Source: Nitrosospira sp. 56-18
GTDB lineage: Bacteria; Pseudomonadota; Gammaproteobacteria; Burkholderiales; Nitrosomonadaceae
Direction of reading: 5' to 3'
Length of the DNA stretch: 64,000 nt
Assembly (NCBI GenBank): GCA_001899235.1
Contig: MKVR01000052.1
Span: 98,944-162,943, forward strand
Below, in pieces: positions 2,969 to 40,665 of this stretch. How positions within the stretch are numbered: position 1 is the stretch's first letter; each line of letters begins with the position of its first letter. A model generated the notes under the pieces. That model saw only the letters and a program-made list of their open reading frames with translations, was not told the origin of the DNA and ran no database searches. A program made the position numbers and the translations under genes.

Positions 2969-3002
2969 CAAAGCCTCCGCCGAACGCGGAGGCTTTGTTT
3001 TT
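2969..3002 (+). terminator. Rho-independent terminator
   Basis: CAAAGCCTCCGC-cgaac-GCGGAGGCTTTG hairpin followed by T run, just after the stop at 2934. Confidence 0.8.
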
Positions 3003-3446
3003 GCAGAACCGGCAAGCATTCCGGATATGAAGAAACAGGCATCTGTTCCCCCCATTTCCTTCCGAAAGCCTTCGTTTTTTCCGCAAATCCATCCTCGAAG
3101 GACAGTACCGTCTGCCGATAGCTCAAATGGATGCCGGAACGGGACGAAATCTGCAACCGCAACCGTATACAGATCCGTGACATCCATGACATCCATGCTC
3201 TTCCAGTGCGACGCTGGGAGAATGGTGTCATCAGGATAGCCTTTCGCGTACGCATGGAGCGCCGCATGTCCGAAACGCAGGGAGATAAAGGACGAAAATC
3301 ACGCCGCCATCATTCGTAAAATAACACCGGATGATTTATCCTTGTGCCTGTACTTCCTGTCCAACCCCTGCCCAGTCTCTACCTTTACCTGTTGCCCCCG
3401 GCCGGAAACCCAAGGCCATCACCTGAAGCGAAATGAGGACCCCATC

Positions 3447-4034
3447 ATGTCCGATGTGATAGACATTGTTTCTCATCATGAGCCGAAACCGGATGACAAT
3501 TCCTGGGTAGGGGGAAAGCCGCCTGAGGAAGAAATCGAGGTCGTCGTTTACGACCCCGGCTGGTCGGGCATATTCGTCGAGCTCTCCGGGGCAATCGAAA
3601 CAGCGCTGGGAGCTGTTGCGCTGCGCATCGACCACATCGGCTCCACCGCTGTGCCCGGGCTCGCGGCAAAACCGGTGATCGATATGGATCTCACCGTCGA
3701 GGATCCGGCAGATGAAGAAACCTACGTGAACGCCCTCGAAAAGCTAGGATACCAACTGATCATTCGGGAACCCGATTGGCACCAGCATCGCTGCCTGCGT
3801 CTCGATGCTCCGCGCGCGAATCTCCATGTCTTCGGACCGGACTGCCCGGAAAACATACGCCACCTGCTGTTCCGGGACTGGCTTCGAGCGCATCCCGAAG
3901 AGTGCGCGTTGTACGAACGGGCCAAGAGAGCGGCACTCGAGGGCGCGCGTTATGTCATGAACTATAATCTCAACAAGCAACCCGTAATTCGCGACATCTA
4001 CGCCCGGGCGTTCAGGGCCGCCGGGCTAATATAG
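3447..4034 (+). CDS. GrpB family protein
   Basis: IEVVVYDPGW, RIDHIGSTAVPGLAAKPVIDMDL, NLHVF, HLLFRDWLRAHP, Y..K motifs; start placed at MSDVID (ORF track begins 3342). Confidence 0.88.
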   Translation: MSDVIDIVSHHEPKPDDNSWVGGKPPEEEIEVVVYDPGWSGIFVELSGAIETALGAVALRIDHIGSTAVPGLAAKPVIDMDLTVEDPADEETYVNALEKLGYQLIIREPDWHQHRCLRLDAPRANLHVFGPDCPENIRHLLFRDWLRAHPEECALYERAKRAALEGARYVMNYNLNKQPVIRDIYARAFRAAGLI

Positions 4035-4912: not shown

Positions 4913-5134
4913 TTTTCCCCGCCCATCTCCCGTCTCGCAAAGCGGCCGCGTCAAGAATAATTGACCTTACTATAACGGACTCCCAGCAGCATGCAATCGC
5001 TTTTCAAGCGGCAAATCTCCTGGGTGCGAGAATTGATGGAAAAAACGGTGGCGCTGTGGCGGCATGAAGGCCAGCTGAACATGCCGGAGCAACAGCACGG
5101 TGACAAAAGGCACACAACGGCGTAACATGCCCGA

Positions 5135-5428
5135 GTGAAACCCTTTCGGTGGAGTTCGGAGAAGAACGGGATTCTCGTGGCTGATCGCGGGATTTCCTTC
5201 GAAAATATCGTAGTAGCGATCGAATCGGGTGGCCTGCTCGATATCCTGAGCCATCCGAACCAGGCGAAGCACCCACGGCAACGGATTCTGGTCGTGGGTC
5301 TGGACAATTATGCCTACCTGATTCCATTCGCCGAGGAAGAAGACTGCCTCTTCCTTAAAACCATCATACCGAGCCGCAAGGCGACAAGGGATTATTTGAG
5401 CAAAGGTGAATCGGATGCCGAAGATTGA
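5135..5428 (+). CDS. BrnT-like type II toxin
   Basis: FRWSSEKN..RGISFE..HPNQ..LIPF..FLKTIIPSRKAT pattern; overlaps downstream antitoxin. Confidence 0.8.
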   Translation: MKPFRWSSEKNGILVADRGISFENIVVAIESGGLLDILSHPNQAKHPRQRILVVGLDNYAYLIPFAEEEDCLFLKTIIPSRKATRDYLSKGESDAED

Positions 5429-29321: not shown

Positions 29322-30095
29322 CTATGCGGTCGCAAGAGCGGATTTTTCCGCGCCCTCTCCCGGATAACGAACCTGGTCGTTATCATCCTGGTCCGCATTC
29401 TCGCGCGCGATGGTTCTTTCAGCCTGCAAATCCGCTTCGCGCCTGCGGGTCATGACAATACCCCAGATTCCCAGGACGACAAGAGCGATACTCGCGGGCT
29501 CCGGAACGGCGTTTACGGGCAACTGTGACGGAGCCGGATCAAAATACGTCTGATGCATCAACCCCTGGTTCCCCACGATCACCGATCCCGATGCGACAAG
29601 ATCCATGGTGGAATTGCTTTTTAGCCAATTCAAAGTCCAGTTTGAGCCCTGCATATTGAGCTCGTATGTCTTATCGTTGACCACAAAGTCTTCCACGAAG
29701 GAAAACCCGTTGAATACGCCATTCTGGAATTGTATCGATGGACCGCTCAATACGTTCGAGTCCCCGAAGGCAAATCCCAATGGCTGACTGCCAAATACCA
29801 TGTCAAAAATGGTGTTGTTGGAAACACCATTGACAGGGGTAAGCGCAATGTTGACCGTACCGGTACCACTTCCCGGTATGAGGCTTTTATCAAATAGCAC
29901 ATGCCCGCTCACGGTGCCCGCGGCGCAGCTATTGCATGTGTTGGTCCCCTGCAGGCCCAGGCTGTTGGCCAGGCCGCCGGTAGTCAGGATCGTGCCGGAG
30001 AAATCGGCTCCCACATAGATTTGCGCGGCTTGGGCAGGCAATATGGCAGCGCCAAGAATCCCGGATACAATTGTCGTACGAAAAAATTTACTCAC
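29322..30095 (-). CDS. PEP-CTERM protein with extended C-terminal tail
   Basis: Signal peptide ending AQA; VPEPASIALVVLGIWGIVMTRRR followed by ~38 extra residues. Confidence 0.85.
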   Translation of the reverse strand: MSKFFRTTIVSGILGAAILPAQAAQIYVGADFSGTILTTGGLANSLGLQGTNTCNSCAAGTVSGHVLFDKSLIPGSGTGTVNIALTPVNGVSNNTIFDMVFGSQPLGFAFGDSNVLSGPSIQFQNGVFNGFSFVEDFVVNDKTYELNMQGSNWTLNWLKSNSTMDLVASGSVIVGNQGLMHQTYFDPAPSQLPVNAVPEPASIALVVLGIWGIVMTRRREADLQAERTIARENADQDDNDQVRYPGEGAEKSALATA

Positions 30096-30390
30096 ATCCC
30101 CTCCACGAATGATGATATGAAATCAACAGAACCTGGAGTCATCTTACGCGCGCCATGCCATATAGCTATTGGACTCAAGTACATCCTGTACCATGGTACA
30201 GGTGGCGATACAGGTAGCGAAGGGCACCCCGATGGGTTCATGGCCCGGCAATGAGGTACCCCGCCGCAAGCAGCGGGGTATTGACTGCACTTTTACAAAT
30301 CGCCGGCTTTCAGCCAGCCTTCGCCCCAGGAAGCGGGGATTAAACCCGAAAAGATTAACGGCAGCCGGAAGGAATCCCTGAACGGGAACA

Positions 30391-30501
30391 CGTCATATTT
30401 CCTACACACAATGCCTGTATAGTGAAGATGCCCTTTCGACGAACTTAATGTCGTCATCCACCGGACAGAGATCATTCCCATGAGCCTGTCCGGTTTTTTT
30501 T
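30391..30501 (+). ncRNA. Putative sRNA gene with promoter, copy 1
   Basis: CGTCATATTTCCTACACACAA, TATAGT -10, GACG hairpin, CCGGACAG..CTGTCCGG terminator + T8; paralog at 32113-32225. Confidence 0.5.
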
Positions 30502-30863
30502 CTTGCTGTTTCGCCCGCCTGTACATTTTCTTCACCAGTCAATTCAGCCCGGCCATGGATCCTTCCAGCGGCAATCTGCCCTGATAGCGTCCTTTCAGTT
30601 TCGCCTCGAGCTCGTTGCGTTTCAGATCCGAGTGGAAATCATGCTCCTGGCCAGACTGGTTCTCTGCATTTCCACGGAAGCATCCGGCAGCGGCCCCCGC
30701 GAAGTCGTGGAGACGCTTATCGGCAAATTTTCAATCCAGGGGCTATGAAATCGCCCTTGCCGGCCGTAATAGGTGTTACCAGGACATGATAATCGCGGTG
30801 CGGGCTGCGTGATCCTTGCAGCATTTCGTAAAAAGCTGGCAGGCCCGGCATCCCGAGCCTTGA

Positions 30864-31125
30864 CTCAACAACCACCAGCTAAAGCTGGTGGGTTGGGGTT
30901 GCGGACTGAAAGTCCGGACACGCGTTGCCTGAACGACGCGTCCCAAAATCGGATTTCATTTTGAAATCATCGGCAGCAACTGTAGCAACTGTGGCAACGG
31001 TAGGATGGGTGGAGTGAAACGCAACCCATCAAAAACATCTATCCAGTACCAGGAAAATGATGGGTTACGCTTTGCTCTACCCATCCTACGCAAGCTGGTT
31101 TTATACCTTGGAATGAAAAATAACC
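30864..31125 (-). mobile_element. Non-autonomous IS200-like composite element with GTAG REP doublet, copy 2
   Basis: Reverse complement of the 4648-4912 architecture; left hairpin deleted; 9-bp GCAACTGTR unit expanded. Confidence 0.7.
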
Positions 31126-31164
31126 AGCAATGCCAATGGAAACGAGGGTCGGCCGGGTTCTGGA

Positions 31165-31716
31165 ATGTGCGCCGGCAGCGGAAATGAATACACCAGTTGG
31201 GATGGAGTCGTGAAGGCAAGGTTCGGCCCCTATATTGTTCGCACCGGCAAATCGCTGGCACCCTCGCAATGGCTGATAAGCGCTGCCTACTGGAAGCAGG
31301 GATACACATCGAACCACATACTCACCGGAAATGACGTCGTTATAGATGCGGAACTCTACGGTTCCGTGGTGGGCACGGTGCTGGTAAAACTGGATGGGGC
31401 ACGGGGATTATCGGCAGATGAATCCTATTCGGCCGAGCTTGATTTACTGCGGAACCAGGGCAGGAAGCTGGCCGAGTTATCCCGCTTTGCCGTCCTCCCG
31501 GGACAACGTACCCGGTCCGTGATGGGCGCCATGTTTCACTGTGTTTATTACACCACTCGCCTCCTTAATGGCACCACTGATCTGGTATGCGAGGTTGTGC
31601 CACGGCATGTAGCCGCTCAGCAACGATTGTTAGGTTTCCGGCGGATCGCGGGACCAAAACCCTGTACACGTGTTGGGGTATCGGAAGCGGTATTACTACA
31701 TAGAGAATTGTCATGA
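31165..31716 (+). CDS. FeeM-like N-acyl amino acid synthase / GNAT-fold acyltransferase
   Basis: VGTVLVKLDGARGLSADE.Y..ELD.LR..G.KLAELSRFA..F......DLVCEV.PRH...LGF pattern. Confidence 0.7.
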   Translation: MCAGSGNEYTSWDGVVKARFGPYIVRTGKSLAPSQWLISAAYWKQGYTSNHILTGNDVVIDAELYGSVVGTVLVKLDGARGLSADESYSAELDLLRNQGRKLAELSRFAVLPGQRTRSVMGAMFHCVYYTTRLLNGTTDLVCEVVPRHVAAQQRLLGFRRIAGPKPCTRVGVSEAVLLHRELS

Positions 31717-31895
31717 GCGAATGGATCGAGTTTACAGGCAACGAAATGCCGGTACCGGAAGAAACGCTGGTAGACGTCAAATACAGGGATGGCCGCAAGC
31801 TCTATCGTACGAAAGCCATGCTCTTCTGCTGGACCTTCAATAATCTGAGCAAATTCGACATCATCGAATACCGGATTGCAGAGGATGAGCAATGA
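31713..31895 (+). CDS. Small phage-like hypothetical protein
   Basis: MSEWIEFTG.EMPV...LVDVKYRDG...W......DIIEYR; ATGA overlap with the upstream stop. Confidence 0.6.
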   Translation: MSEWIEFTGNEMPVPEETLVDVKYRDGRKLYRTKAMLFCWTFNNLSKFDIIEYRIAEDEQ

Positions 31896-32089
31896 CCTTC
31901 CACAATAAAAGCGCCTTTGCATGGCTTGTGCGAAAAATCATGAAGTCCGGGCAGAGATGCGAAAAATTTGCTGGCTTGGCTATGGAACCCGGAGTGCCTC
32001 ATCCGAAGTCGGCCTACCGGCTCCATTCCATCTCATTCGCTGAACCGTGCTCGATGCCCAGGCTCGTCCGGCGTCATTATTGGCGGTGA
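31892..32089 (+). CDS. Small hypothetical protein
   Basis: ATGA overlap with the preceding gene; no recognised motif. Confidence 0.35.
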   Translation: MTFHNKSAFAWLVRKIMKSGQRCEKFAGLAMEPGVPHPKSAYRLHSISFAEPCSMPRLVRRHYWR

Positions 32090-32112
32090 AAAGGAACCGC
32101 TGTGTGCGAATG

Positions 32113-32225
32113 CGTCATATTTCCTACACACAACTCCGATATAGTGAATATGCCCCTTGACGGGCTTCATCGCCCCGTCGCATGTCCGGGCAGCCGCTTT
32201 CCCTCAGGCTGCCCGGCATTTTTTT
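32113..32225 (+). ncRNA. Putative sRNA gene with promoter, copy 2
   Basis: Same 21-nt box and same spacing to TATAGT as copy 1; GACGGG..CCCGTC hairpin; CCGGGCAGCC..GGCTGCCCGG terminator + T run. Confidence 0.5.
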
Positions 32226-32968
32226 CTCCATTCAGACCTCCCGTTGCACCTCTTTCACCACCTGATTCGTCCATCTAGCTTGTGATCCGGCCGTTCCACG
32301 GCCTTGCCCGGTTCTCCGGCGCGTCCTTCTCTCTGGCTTGATCTTGCGCTATTCCGGCATCAAAGTTCGGCAAGACCTGCTCTTGTTCCATATTTCTTAT
32401 GGAAACTTGTATGACATCCATCCAAACTTGTCGAGACTCTCTTTTTTTAACAATTCTGCAACATAAAACAAGAAATACTTGACGAATACCGGCGAAAGGA
32501 TGCAAACAGCACGAATTGATGCATTAAAACGCCTTCAAACAGGATAATTCGCATGCATATACCCTGTTTTTAGGCATTTACGGCAATATATGACAAAATA
32601 ATATCTGCAGGACAGGCTTACCGGAATCGCCATCCTTCATGCACGATCCGGCCGCGTCGCGTTTCCTTCTCTCCGGGCGATCGGTTGCCCCCTTCGATTG
32701 CCGCCTGAAACCCGGTCTCATGCATGCTCTTCGATTTCCGGGCGGAATGCATAGTTGATGGGACCATCTATAATGAATACATTCATGACGGTTTTCCGGA
32801 AAATCGGGCAATTTTTAGAAGGAATCACAGTTAATGTTGAGTCACAATTTTGTAACAAATATCCTATATTGTGTATCGGTAGTTAACACTTGTTTTGCGC
32901 GCGCGTCGCTGCTTATCGTTATTCGTTGCCTGCAGAACATGCTCTGCTGCGCGGCTTGCACCTCGTTC

Positions 32969-33142: not shown

Positions 33143-33391
33143 ATGAATGCTCAACGACTTTTTCTGACTTGCCCTGATTGCAAGGCCAGTATTCCAGCAG
33201 TTTATTCGACAAGAATCGAATATCCCAAGGCCAGTGACATGCCAGGCCTGATCCACTACAAGCGGATAATCATCGGGGATTGTCCCTGGTGCAAATTAAC
33301 CGTGGTGGGCAACAAGGAAGACCTGGAGTTGCGCAGATCTCCTGAAAAGAGGTCCCTTCATGATCAGTCATCAGTTCAATCTCCCACCTGA
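33143..33391 (+). CDS. Small zinc-ribbon-like protein
   Basis: CPDC ... CPWC pairs. Confidence 0.55.
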   Translation: MNAQRLFLTCPDCKASIPAVYSTRIEYPKASDMPGLIHYKRIIIGDCPWCKLTVVGNKEDLELRRSPEKRSLHDQSSVQSPT

Positions 33392-34857: not shown

Positions 34858-35415
34858 ATGGTTAGTTCTTTTTATAAGAATATCGCTTTTGTCCTGATGT
34901 TGGCCGGCGCTGCTGGTGCCAACGCTACCGTAACCAATTTAGGTAATGTGAACCCGGCAGTACCAACAACCTTCACCGGCCGCGTTTTATCCCCCGGTCC
35001 TTTTAATGACGTTTTCAGCTTCATCCTGCCACCCAATAGCGGCTCAGGTTATAGTGTTCTCAATTTCCCGCTCAGTATTCCGGGAGCAGGAAACTTCAAC
35101 ACCGTAATCTCTTCCATATCGCTATACTCGAACGCCGATGGGATTCTTTTCAACGGCGACGATGCAAATGTTTCATCATTCCTGATCCCCGGAGGCAACA
35201 CCTTCAGCTTTTCATGGGCCCCGAGCCTGGGAGGGAGCATGTATATAAGCATCTCCGGGATTGCGAACGGTTCATTTGGTGGTTTATATAGCGGCTCAAT
35301 CAGCGTTTCACCCTCGATCGGTATTTCACCAATTCCAGAGCCGGAAACCTACGCCATGCTGCTGGCAGGGCTGGGTATGATAGGCGCGATAATTCGTCGC
35401 AAGCCACGCGCTTAA
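34858..35415 (+). CDS. FxDxF family PEP-CTERM protein
   Basis: Signal peptide; FNDVFSF motif; IPEPETYAMLLAGLGMIGAIIRRK. Confidence 0.88.
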   Translation: MVSSFYKNIAFVLMLAGAAGANATVTNLGNVNPAVPTTFTGRVLSPGPFNDVFSFILPPNSGSGYSVLNFPLSIPGAGNFNTVISSISLYSNADGILFNGDDANVSSFLIPGGNTFSFSWAPSLGGSMYISISGIANGSFGGLYSGSISVSPSIGISPIPEPETYAMLLAGLGMIGAIIRRKPRA

Positions 35416-39990: not shown

Positions 39991-40665
39991 ATGAATCACA
40001 CCGTGCCAGTGCGGGGCTTGCTGCTTGCCCTTGCAGTGACTCTCTACCCGTCGATAGCAGGAGCAGCCCCTACTGTAACATCTTATTTATTCGAAGATAT
40101 TACGCATAGTAATGCTGGAGCCGAAGCCGATGGCGAAACAAATCTGAAGGTTGATGTAATAGATCTTGGCGGCAACCAAGTACGCTTCACCTTTACCAAC
40201 AATTCCAGTTCTTCCCTGGCGGACGTCTATTTTGATGACGGCGCGCTTCTTGGAATCGCATCCATCACCTCTTCAGCGGGAGTGAGCTTTTCACAAGGGG
40301 CTAGCCCCCCCAATCTTCCCGGGGGCAATTTGGTTAGCCCCGCTTTTGTCACAACCGCTGGCTTTCTCGCGGATTCCGATGCGCCTGTCCCCCATAATGG
40401 CGTTAGCATGGGTGAGTGGCTCGCCATCGATTTCACCCTGAAGCCAGGCCAGTCGTACAATAGCGTTATCAACGCGCTTGCATTGCCAAATCATGGCGGG
40501 GATGGAGATTTGCGCATTGGCCTGCACGTCCAGGCATACCCGGGGAATGCCAGCGAGAGCTATATCAACATAGCATCTCCTGTTCCCGAACCGGAAACCT
40601 ATGCGCTATTCATGGCGGGCCTGGGCCTGCTGGGTTTCATGAGGCGTCGCCGCAACGCTTCTTAA
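39991..40665 (+). CDS. PEP-CTERM protein
   Basis: Signal peptide; VPEPETYALFMAGLGLLGFMRRRR. Confidence 0.9.
   Translation: MNHTVPVRGLLLALAVTLYPSIAGAAPTVTSYLFEDITHSNAGAEADGETNLKVDVIDLGGNQVRFTFTNNSSSSLADVYFDDGALLGIASITSSAGVSFSQGASPPNLPGGNLVSPAFVTTAGFLADSDAPVPHNGVSMGEWLAIDFTLKPGQSYNSVINALALPNHGGDGDLRIGLHVQAYPGNASESYINIASPVPEPETYALFMAGLGLLGFMRRRRNAS

What the first reader, a model, noticed from the sequence alone, without database searches (positions are those of the whole stretch)
30391..30545. Paralogous sRNA-like unit 1: conserved upstream box, promoter, two hairpins, UCCC loop
Seen: CGTCATATTTCCTACACACAA is identical at 30391 and 32113, each exactly 27 nt before TATAGT. Each is followed by ATGCCC, a GACG..CGTC hairpin and a GC-rich terminator whose stems differ in sequence yet pair. 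Loops contain TCCC / TTCCCTC. Weak similarity continues ~45 nt past the T run. Inference: two ~70-nt co-regulated sRNAs with anti-Shine-Dalgarno-like loops under a shared regulator. A candidate family to test is the Betaproteobacteria toxic sRNA.
Basis: partly seen in the sequence, partly recalled or inferred. Interest (0 to 1): 0.65.

Follow-up and report, generated by a model that had tools for sequence, protein, structure and literature searches.

The report
Sibling small-RNA genes in Nitrosospira
Two related, strongly conserved promoter-hairpin-terminator units in a soil ammonia oxidiser (Nitrosospira) look like a pair of ~70-75-nt regulatory small-RNA genes of an uncatalogued family, but the family occurs in only one narrow clade and no transcript could be checked.

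Summary
The 21-nt box CGTCATATTTCCTACACACAA occurs exactly twice in the 3.29-Mb genome (30391, 32113). Each copy lies 27 nt before TATAGT and is followed by UGCCC, a GACG..CGUC hairpin, and a GC-rich terminator hairpin with UUCCC in its loop and a 7-8 T run.

Both units recur, in the same order around a FeeM/orf60 gene pair, in a second Nitrosospira species, a sister strain and metagenome contigs. They are islands of 89-100% identity inside barely alignable spacer DNA (26-41%). The neighbouring FeeM gene is 88.8% identical. Every substitution is unpaired or keeps a pair, and the paralogues differ by 2-3 compensatory pairs.

No Rfam family matches, so the toxic-sRNA suggestion fails. Covariance models find nothing in 188 other Nitrosomonadaceae genomes. 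Exact-pattern scans of viral contigs and a BLAST of phage records find nothing either.

Best reading (about 0.55): two sibling trans-acting sRNA genes behind one dedicated promoter element, with C/U-rich unpaired segments that could pair with G-rich ribosome-binding sites. Hfq is encoded.

This is a new, very narrow family of a well-known kind, of modest interest.

The parts
30353..30390 (+). Unit 1 upstream conserved stretch (GATTAACGGCAG..AAGGAA..CTG..GGGAAC), about -77 to -40 from the predicted start
   Evidence: It is 71% identical between species, while DNA further upstream is unalignable at 26%. The same motifs appear upstream of unit 2.
30391..30411 (+). Unit 1 21-nt box CGTCATATTTCCTACACACAA, covering the -35 region (about -39 to -19)
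   Evidence: There are only two copies in the genome. The first 16 nt are invariant in all 7 distinct variants, and only positions 17 and 19 show C>T.
30418..30423 (+). Unit 1 -10 hexamer TATAGT (TATAGTGA is invariant)
   Evidence: Invariant in all variants. No TTGACA-like -35 lies at 16-18 nt.
30428..30501 (+). Unit 1 predicted sRNA of about 72-74 nt. It has a 5' single strand AUGCCCUUUC, hairpin 1 at 30438-30455, linker AUCCA, terminator hairpin at 30461-30493 with an AUCAUUCCCAUG loop, and U8 at 30494-30501. The start is inferred from the -10 spacing.
   Evidence: Fold z is -4.4 and unpaired probabilities are. It is 95% identical between species, and all 4 substitutions are unpaired.
30502..30560 (+). 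Moderately conserved tail after the unit 1 terminator (TACATTTTCTTCACCAGTCAATTCAGCCCGGCCATGG)
   Evidence: It is 80% identical between species with frame-breaking indels, and weakly similar to the tail of unit 2.
32075..32112 (+). Unit 2 upstream conserved stretch
   Evidence: 71% identical between species, with motifs shared with unit 1.
32113..32133 (+). Unit 2 21-nt box, identical to that of unit 1
32140..32145 (+). Unit 2 -10 hexamer TATAGT
32150..32225 (+). Unit 2 predicted sRNA of about 74-76 nt. It has a 5' single strand AUGCCCCUU, hairpin 1 at 32159-32179 (loop UUCAUC), linker GCAUGU, terminator hairpin at 32186-32216 with loop GCUUUCCCUCA, and U7 at 32219-32225.
   Evidence: Fold z is -5.5. 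It is 89% identical between species. CC>UU in the stem keeps G-U pairs, and C>G improves hairpin 1.
31210..31895 (+). Gene pair bracketed by the two units: a FeeM-type N-acyl amino acid synthase (ORF 31165-31716, likely start GTG 31210) and orf60 (31713-31895). This is context, not shown to be functionally linked.
   Evidence: Pfam PF21926, E 5e-35. The same bracket appears in every genome or contig that has the units. FeeM/orf60 without units occurs in other Nitrosospira and in a phage-like contig.

Best explanation
**What it is.** The two units are sibling genes for small regulatory RNAs of about 70-75 nt. Each is a free-standing transcription unit.

**Promoter.** Each has a sigma-70-type -10 (TATAGT) without a usable -35. 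In place of the -35 sits an almost invariant 21-nt box plus about 38 nt of conserved upstream DNA. I infer that this is the site of a dedicated activator, or of an alternative sigma factor, that switches both genes on together.

**Transcript.** Transcription would start about 5-8 nt after TATAGT, at or next to UGCCC. It would end at the intrinsic terminator.

**RNA features.** The RNA exposes three conserved unpaired segments:
- a 5' C/U-rich end (UGCCCYUU);
- the loop of hairpin 1 (CUUMAU);
- UUCCC in the terminator loop.

A U-tail follows, of the kind Hfq binds.

**Mechanism, inferred and not shown.** The C/U-rich segments pair with G-rich ribosome-binding regions of mRNAs in trans and repress their translation, as UCCC-motif sRNAs do.

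**Origin.** The pair is a young, clade-specific acquisition that brackets a FeeM/orf60 cassette with phage relatives.
For: **Shown here.**
- The box is unique to these two sites.
- Both units fold far better than shuffles into the same two-hairpin architecture.
- Both units are retained, in the same order, in a second species (G047, MAG Nitrosospira sp. SMAG_U6104), a sister strain (GCA_047149865.1) and metagenome or Logan contigs.
- Identity between species is 100%/94% for box to -10 and 95%/89% for the RNA bodies. Surrounding spacers are 26-41% identical and the FeeM gene 88.8%.
- All substitutions and indels among the 7 distinct variants fall in predicted unpaired positions or keep pairing. 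100% of 96 pair cells are standard pairs, and 0 of 500 shuffles reach the observed pairing or covariation score. Sliding the partners drops pairing to 22-47%.
- Paralogues differ by A-U to G-C swaps in both helices.
- Unit 1 has no upstream same-strand gene to terminate. The nearest downstream gene is about 640-880 nt away, across insertions that differ between genomes.
- No conserved reading frame exists on either strand: ATG becomes TTG or GTG, indels break frames, and minus-strand ORFs are unrelated.
- hfq is present.

**From the literature.** Sibling sRNAs with a shared upstream promoter element and UCCC motifs in a loop, a single strand and the terminator loop are established in LhrC1-5 (PMC4132741). 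Sibling sRNAs also exist in Betaproteobacteria (NgncR_162/163, PMC9973317).
Against:
- Diversity is small. The 7 distinct sequences come from essentially two species and two paralogues, so the compensatory changes amount to 2-3 events.
- The promoter lacks a -35, and the consensus scanner does not call it.
- No regulator gene is linked to the units.
- No other box copy exists that would define a regulon.
- No target stands out. Exact complementarity of 13-15 nt is at chance level and not at start codons. Seed matches near starts are unremarkable. The best local duplex is the unit 2 loop with the GGAGGGGA ribosome-binding site of the adjacent PEP-CTERM gene. It lies only at the 2.3% tail of the background across 54 tests.
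- A 21/21-nt identity is stricter than most protein-binding sites need.
Confidence: 0.55

Rival explanations
1. The units are promoter-plus-leader modules (attenuators) for the genes downstream. Unit 1 would drive FeeM/orf60, and unit 2 the 82-aa zinc-ribbon ORF and later genes. The terminator would be a regulated stop, and the short RNA only a by-product.
For: - The units have the same orientation as the downstream genes.
- Sequence stays about 80% conserved for about 60 nt past the unit 1 T run.
- The units always accompany FeeM/orf60.
- Unit 2's terminator is the only one after orf60.
Against: - The distance to the next gene is 640-880 nt and varies through insertions. These include an IS200-end/REP composite in G000 and about 170 nt more in the sister strain.
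- A separate conserved promoter-like block (ATGAAA-17-TAATAG, 30736-30830) lies nearer FeeM.
- I saw no alternative antiterminator pairing. The minimum-energy and centroid folds agree, and the stems have near-zero unpaired probability.
- FeeM/orf60 orthologues in 8 or more other Nitrosospira genomes and in a phage-like contig lack any such unit.
Confidence: 0.2
2. The 21-nt box is part of the RNA, as a long single-stranded 5' seed. The promoter then lies further upstream, and TATAGT is not a -10.
For: The box is more strictly conserved (21/21 between paralogues) than typical protein sites, as seeds of sibling sRNAs such as OmrA/B or Qrr are (own knowledge). Conserved DNA exists upstream of the box.
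Against: - No -10-like or sigma-54-like element lies at the right distance upstream of the box in any of the 6 aligned copies (read by eye).
- TATAGTGA is invariant and correctly placed for a -10.
- The 6 nt between box and TATAGT vary freely, as a spacer would.
- No genomic complement of the box exists at <=4 mismatches.
Confidence: 0.1
3. The units are leftovers of a mobile or prophage cassette: duplicated promoter-terminator brackets of a moron-like FeeM/orf60 insertion. They would have no present RNA function of their own beyond starting and stopping transcription.
For: - A 74%-identical FeeM sits among phage early genes (YqaJ exonuclease, NinX) in a 56-kb contig.
- The units bracket the cassette as direct repeats and are confined to one clade.
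Against: - The phage-like contig and all other FeeM loci lack the units.
- No viral contig or phage record matches.
- Loop and 5' sequences (UGCCC, CUUMAU, UUCCC) are conserved between paralogues whose stems have diverged. A mere terminator does not require this.
Confidence: 0.12

Closest known systems
LhrC1-5 of Listeria monocytogenes (multicopy UCCC-motif sRNAs; PMC4132741)
   Same: Both are several sibling copies with a conserved promoter element upstream of -35 and dependence on one regulator (LisR in LhrC). Both are short RNAs with a hairpin, a single-stranded stretch and a terminator. The C-rich UCCC motif is exposed in the terminator loop and binds Shine-Dalgarno regions.
   Different: There is no sequence or Rfam match. 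This case has two copies, not five, in a beta-proteobacterium with Hfq. Only one clear UCCC is present, in the terminator loop, plus a GCCC(C)UU 5' end. The regulator and targets are unknown.
NgncR_162/163 (NmsR/RcoF) sibling sRNAs of Neisseria (PMC9973317)
   Same: Both are pairs of adjacent sibling sRNAs in a beta-proteobacterium acting on many mRNAs (abstract seen; other details from own knowledge).
   Different: No Rfam or covariance-model similarity was found. The Neisseria pair is in tandem without genes between the copies and is conserved across the genus. The present pair brackets two genes and is limited to one Nitrosospira clade.
Betaproteobacteria toxic small RNA
   Same: Both are short RNAs of Betaproteobacteria with pyrimidine-rich unpaired segments thought to mimic the anti-Shine-Dalgarno sequence (own knowledge).
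   Different: It did not match in the Rfam 15 scan, even at E<=10 with permissive filters. The units are not members.
OmrA/OmrB, PrrF1/F2, Qrr1-5, AbcR1/2 (sibling sRNAs with one dedicated transcription factor; own knowledge)
   Same: The logic is the same: duplicated sRNA genes, a shared promoter site, and conserved unpaired seed segments while stems drift with compensation.
   Different: These are different sequences and organisms. In this case the regulator is unidentified, and the promoter site occurs nowhere else in the genome.

Membership tests
Betaproteobacteria toxic small RNA (Rfam) | Match to the Rfam covariance model at or near its gathering score | tested here: not met
   No hit appears in the whole window at gathering score. 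Nothing appears among 12 listed matches at E<=10 on 30200-32500.
Any Rfam 15 family | Covariance-model match over 30391-30545 or 32113-32270 | tested here: not met
   The only overlap is SorX at 14.6 bits, E 4.2, against a gathering score of 46.6, which is chance.
Free-standing trans-acting sRNA gene (kind) | Own promoter | tested here: inconclusive
   An invariant TATAGTGA follows an invariant box at fixed spacing. There is no -35, the scanner does not call it, and there are no start-site data.
Free-standing trans-acting sRNA gene (kind) | Rho-independent terminator with a U tail close behind the promoter | tested here: met
   GC-rich stems of 9-10 bp are followed by T8 or T7, 70-80 nt after the -10. 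Pairing is kept in all variants.
Free-standing trans-acting sRNA gene (kind) | Discrete transcript of the predicted size | not testable with these tools
Free-standing trans-acting sRNA gene (kind) | Conservation of structure with compensatory change, and no coding potential | tested here: met
   100% of pair cells are standard pairs. Three pairs change on both sides. 0 of 500 shuffles reach the observed pairing or covariation score. The start codon and frame are not conserved. Caveat: there are only 7 distinct sequences.
Free-standing trans-acting sRNA gene (kind) | Identifiable mRNA target complementarity | tested here: inconclusive
   Only chance-level matches were found.
Hfq-dependent sRNA | hfq gene in the genome, and a 3' hairpin plus U-tail module | tested here: met
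   tblastn finds Hfq at C14:98823-99026, 82% identical to E. coli residues 2-69, E 1.6e-34. Binding itself was not tested.
UCCC-motif sibling sRNAs (LhrC-like mode of action) | Multiple copies with a shared promoter element, and a C-rich motif exposed in loops including the terminator loop | tested here: met
   There are two copies with one box. UUCCC is unpaired in the terminator loop of all variants. These features match the description in PMC4132741. The units are not homologous to LhrC.
Transcription attenuator or leader of the downstream gene | Short, fixed distance to the regulated gene, and alternative antiterminator pairing | tested here: not met
   The distance to FeeM is 640-880 nt and variable. 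No competing fold was seen. Orthologous FeeM loci lack the unit.

The most novel reading that the evidence does not exclude
The two sRNA genes and the FeeM/orf60 pair they bracket form one horizontally acquired, phage-derived module. In this reading a dedicated regulator turns on the two sRNAs through a box found nowhere else in the genome. The sRNAs then tune surface or signalling functions, such as PEP-CTERM proteins with GGAGGGG-type ribosome-binding sites, together with an N-acyl amino acid lipid made by FeeM. This would be a self-contained RNA-plus-lipid-signal cassette in an ammonia oxidiser.
Probability: 0.08. Interest if true: 0.55.

Novelty: new member of a known kind. Interest (0 to 1): 0.3.

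Why it matters
I found no paper describing regulatory RNAs in Nitrosospira, a major soil nitrifier: one full-text search returned nothing relevant. A conserved, co-regulated sRNA pair would give a first handle on post-transcriptional control in this genus. Its box could also serve as bait for an unknown regulator. The family is confined to one clade and resembles many sibling sRNA pairs already known, so the general lesson is small unless a target or the link to the FeeM cassette proves unusual.

Tried and rejected
2. **Rfam.** Scans at gathering score and at E<=10 found only chance hits. The miRNA-like hits at 30997-31094 come from a long REP/IS hairpin.
3. **BLAST in relatives.** A search of unit 1 in 40 related genomes found nothing beyond the genome's own paralogue.
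4. **Box pattern.** A search at <=3 mismatches in 43 Nitrosospira genomes found only G000 and G047.
5. **Covariance models.**
   - R1 (box plus RNA) in 190 Nitrosomonadaceae genomes gave no true hit besides G000 and G047; all others score <=22 bits.
   - R3 (RNA only, 4 sequences) in 29 Nitrosospira genomes gave the same result, with others <=19.5 bits.
   - R1, R2 and R3 on ten other FeeM loci and a phage-like contig gave nothing.
6. **Exact-pattern scans.**
   - Genome contigs returned only G047's record.
   - Metagenome contigs returned 3 contigs identical to G000.
   - Three viral contigs patterns returned 0 hits.
   - BLAST against phage records returned 0 hits.
7. **Regulon search.** No other box-like site exists in the genome at <=4 mismatches. 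The 5-6-mismatch hits are scattered and lack a -10.
8. **Known promoter or operator types, read by eye and rejected.**
   - Sigma-54 -24/-12.
   - ECF GGAAC..CGTC: the GGAA is lost in G047 unit 1 and the spacing is short.
   - FliA.
   - Fur, LexA and NsrR boxes.
   - lux-type palindrome.
   - T7-like promoter.
9. **Coding potential.**
   - The MPFRRT* mini-ORF is not conserved.
   - Minus-strand ORFs overlapping or following the units are unrelated between species.
10. **Target prediction.**
    - Long exact complementarity gave only chance-level matches.
    - Whole-RNA duplexfold on the neighbourhood was uninformative.
    - Seed motif near start codons gave nothing remarkable.
    - Seeds against local ribosome-binding regions gave nothing remarkable.
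11. **orf60.** It has no paralogues in the genome.

Full report
**1. Where the window lies**

The window is contig C52:98944-162943 of a 3.29-Mb, 56% G+C genome in 54 contigs. The only other genome record holding the units is titled Nitrosospira sp.. The relatives of the window's genome form a family of 190 genomes in four genera. I take the organism to be a Nitrosospira (Nitrosomonadaceae).

**2.

The 21-mer CGTCATATTTCCTACACACAA sits at 30391 and 32113.
- It has no other match in the window at up to 3 mismatches, and none in 100 shuffles.
- It has no other match in the whole genome at up to 4 mismatches on either strand.

In both copies TATAGT begins 27 nt after the box start. Both copies then share the same parts:
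- TATAGTGA, then 1-3 variable bases, then UGCCC;
- a first hairpin closed by GACG/CGUC;
- a short linker;
- a GC-rich hairpin followed by T8 (30494-30501) or T7 (32219-32225).

As RNA, both fold far better than shuffled controls into the same two-hairpin shape, with z -4.4 and -5.5 and 0 of 200 shuffles as good. The 5' 9-10 nt, the loop of hairpin 1 and the terminator loop are predicted to be unpaired.

The simple consensus scanner calls neither a promoter nor a terminator here. This is informative. There is no TTGACA-like -35 at 16-18 nt, and the terminator loops of 11-16 nt exceed the scanner's limit.

Similarity between the two units also runs about 38 nt upstream of the box (ATTAAC..AAGGA..CTG..GGGAA) and weakly about 45 nt past the T run.

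**3. Relatives**

A BLAST of unit 1 in 40 related genomes found only its own paralogue. A pattern search in all 43 Nitrosospira species genomes found the box plus TATAGT in exactly one other genome, G047. There it occurs twice, 1.6 kb apart. G047 is the MAG Nitrosospira sp. SMAG_U6104.

The G047 locus has the same arrangement of unit 1, spacer, FeeM, orf60 and unit 2. It lies in a collinear chromosomal region of about 12 kb.

Three metagenome contigs carry copies identical to the window's.

To widen the sample I searched for FeeM relatives and fetched the DNA around the close ones. Every contig of the 98%- and 84%-identity FeeM clusters that reaches far enough has the units in the same places.

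In total there are 24 copies and 7 distinct sequences.

**4. Evidence of selection**

Between the two species, identity is as follows:

| Region | Unit 1 | Unit 2 |
|---|---|---|
| Box to -10 | 100% | 94% |
| RNA body | 95% (74 of 78 aligned bases) | 89% |
| Upstream stretch | 71% | 71% |

The DNA further upstream and the spacers before and after FeeM/orf60 are 26-41% identical, which is essentially unalignable. The FeeM gene is 88.8% identical. The units are therefore at least as conserved as the neighbouring protein genes, inside fast-changing spacer.

The changes that do occur fit the proposed structure.
- All four unit 1 substitutions between species are unpaired: the base before UGCCC, the loop of hairpin 1, the linker and the terminator loop.
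- The sister strain adds 2 nt to the loop of hairpin 1.
- In unit 2, CC>UU in the terminator stem keeps G-U pairs, and C>G extends hairpin 1.
- Between paralogues, the fifth pair of each helix has switched A-U to G-C.

On the 7 distinct sequences all 96 pair cells are standard pairs. No shuffle of 500 reaches the observed pairing or covariation score. Sliding the partners by 1-3 columns drops pairing to 22-47%.

The caveat is real. This amounts to two or three compensatory events in a shallow tree.

Within the box, the first 16 nt never vary. Positions 17 and 19 each show one C>T. The 6 nt between box and TATAGT vary freely.

**5. What the units are not**

*Not in Rfam.* No Rfam 15 family matches, at gathering score or at E<=10.

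*Not coding.*
- The ATG before CCC is TTG or GTG in relatives.
- The mini-ORF is not kept.
- Indels break all frames after the T run.
- The minus-strand ORFs that gene callers place over or after unit 2 are unrelated between species.

*Not a dispersed repeat.* There are two copies per genome.

*Not found in phages.* No phage record or viral contig matches.

*Not widespread.*
- The box-plus-RNA model (R1) finds nothing else in 190 Nitrosomonadaceae genomes.
- The RNA-only model (R3) finds nothing else in 29 good Nitrosospira genomes.
- Neither finds anything beside the roughly 70%-identical FeeM/orf60 orthologues of eight other species, or in a phage-like contig, even with filters off.

**6. 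Context**

Between the units lie a FeeM-type N-acyl amino acid synthase (Pfam PF21926, E 5e-35) and a 60-aa ORF overlapping its stop codon.

A 74%-identical FeeM sits among phage early genes (YqaJ exonuclease, NinX) in a 56-kb assembly contig. The gene pair therefore has phage relatives.

Upstream of unit 1 is a minus-strand PEP-CTERM protein gene. No same-strand gene therefore ends at unit 1's terminator.

The distance from unit 1 to FeeM is about 640-880 nt.

A separate conserved block with a plausible sigma-70 promoter (ATGAAA-17-TAATAG, 30736-30830) lies closer to FeeM.

**7. Most likely mechanism**

I commit to two sibling, trans-acting sRNA genes.

*Shown:*
- a conserved and unique promoter-region element;
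- an invariant -10;
- a conserved two-hairpin fold with compensatory change;
- a good intrinsic terminator;
- no coding potential;
- no adjacent gene to serve;
- hfq in the genome.

*Inferred:*
- the transcription start, about 30428-30431 and 32150-32153;
- that the box and upstream DNA bind one dedicated activator or alternative sigma factor;
- that the conserved unpaired C/U-rich segments (5' UGCCCYUU and loop UUCCC) pair with G-rich ribosome-binding sites.

The established model for that mode of action is the UCCC-motif sRNAs. In LhrC1-5 the motif in loop A, the single strand and the terminator loop binds the lapB ribosome-binding site. All five promoters share an upstream LisR-responsive element (PMC4132741).

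My target searches gave nothing above chance. The best local candidate is the GGAGGGGA ribosome-binding site of the adjacent PEP-CTERM gene paired with the unit 2 loop. It sits at the 2.3% tail of the background among 54 tests, so it is a lead at most.

**8. Rivals**

| Rival | Odds | Main objection |
|---|---|---|
| Leader or attenuator modules for FeeM and the genes after unit 2 | about 0.2 | Long, variable distances; no antiterminator fold; orthologous FeeM loci lack the unit |
| The box is an RNA seed transcribed from further upstream | about 0.1 | No promoter upstream; TATAGTGA is invariant; the 6-nt spacer is free to vary |
| Promoter-terminator brackets left by a phage-derived cassette | about 0.12 | No such bracket in the phage-like contig; loop and 5' sequences are conserved beyond what a terminator needs |

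One nuance applies to unit 2. Its terminator is also the first one after orf60. Unit 2 RNA could therefore arise both from its own promoter and by processing of the FeeM/orf60 transcript.

**9. Novelty and score**

This is an uncatalogued RNA family of a well-known kind: sibling sRNAs behind a shared promoter element, with C-rich unpaired motifs. Earlier notes of this scan show that such pairs turn up often in other genomes.

It is confined to one Nitrosospira clade and lacks expression data. Interest is modest at 0.3.

It would rise if the box led to a new regulator, or if the RNAs proved to act together with the FeeM lipid synthase they bracket.

Noticed in passing
window 32441-32490: A 50-nt block (TTTTTTTAACAATTCTGCAACATAAAACAAGAAATACTTGACGAATACC) is 92% identical between the two species, inside spacer that is about 65% identical. 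It may be another regulatory site or promoter about 220 nt after unit 2.
   Followed up: no
window 32830-32874: A 45-nt stretch is 96% identical to G047. It holds the inverted repeat CACAAT..ATTGTG around TTTGTAACAAATATCCTATATT. It lies about 270 nt upstream of a conserved 82-aa Cys-rich (zinc-ribbon-like) ORF at 33143-33391 and looks like an operator or promoter.
   Followed up: no
window 30736-30830: A conserved block between unit 1 and FeeM holds a plausible sigma-70 promoter (ATGAAA, 17 nt, TAATAG) and a second conserved motif, CTTGCAGCATTTCG. It is kept in three lineages and is possibly FeeM's own promoter.
   Followed up: partly
L072 (Logan SRR25400116 contig, 56.6 kb), gene at 3001-3507: A FeeM homologue 74% identical to the window's lies in a run of small same-strand genes between a YqaJ-type exonuclease and a NinX homologue, which is a lambdoid-phage early region. 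An N-acyl amino acid synthase as phage cargo may deserve its own look.
   Followed up: partly
window 30997-31094: A long, near-perfect hairpin is part of the IS200-end/REP composite already noted at 30864-31125. It produces spurious microRNA-family hits in Rfam at E 0.05-5. It is absent from the same spacer in G047.
   Followed up: partly
window 31713-31895: orf60 overlaps the FeeM stop codon (ATGA). It is 89% identical in DNA between the species and follows FeeM in G019 (read from the sequence). It has no Pfam or NCBIfam match and no paralogue in the genome.
   Followed up: partly
window 29322-30095 (-), 34858-35415 (+), 39991-40665 (+): Three PEP-CTERM sorting-signal proteins lie within 11 kb of the units. 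The second matches the FxDxF family above its cutoff. The third was recognised only from its C-terminal motif in the translation. The first starts with a very strong GGAGGGGA ribosome-binding site.
   Followed up: partly
L025 about 4937-5190 (-), G047 only: G047 carries about 500 extra bases between the PEP-CTERM gene and unit 1. They hold a small minus-strand ORF with an HCPTCW zinc-finger-like motif that is absent from the window's genome.
   Followed up: no
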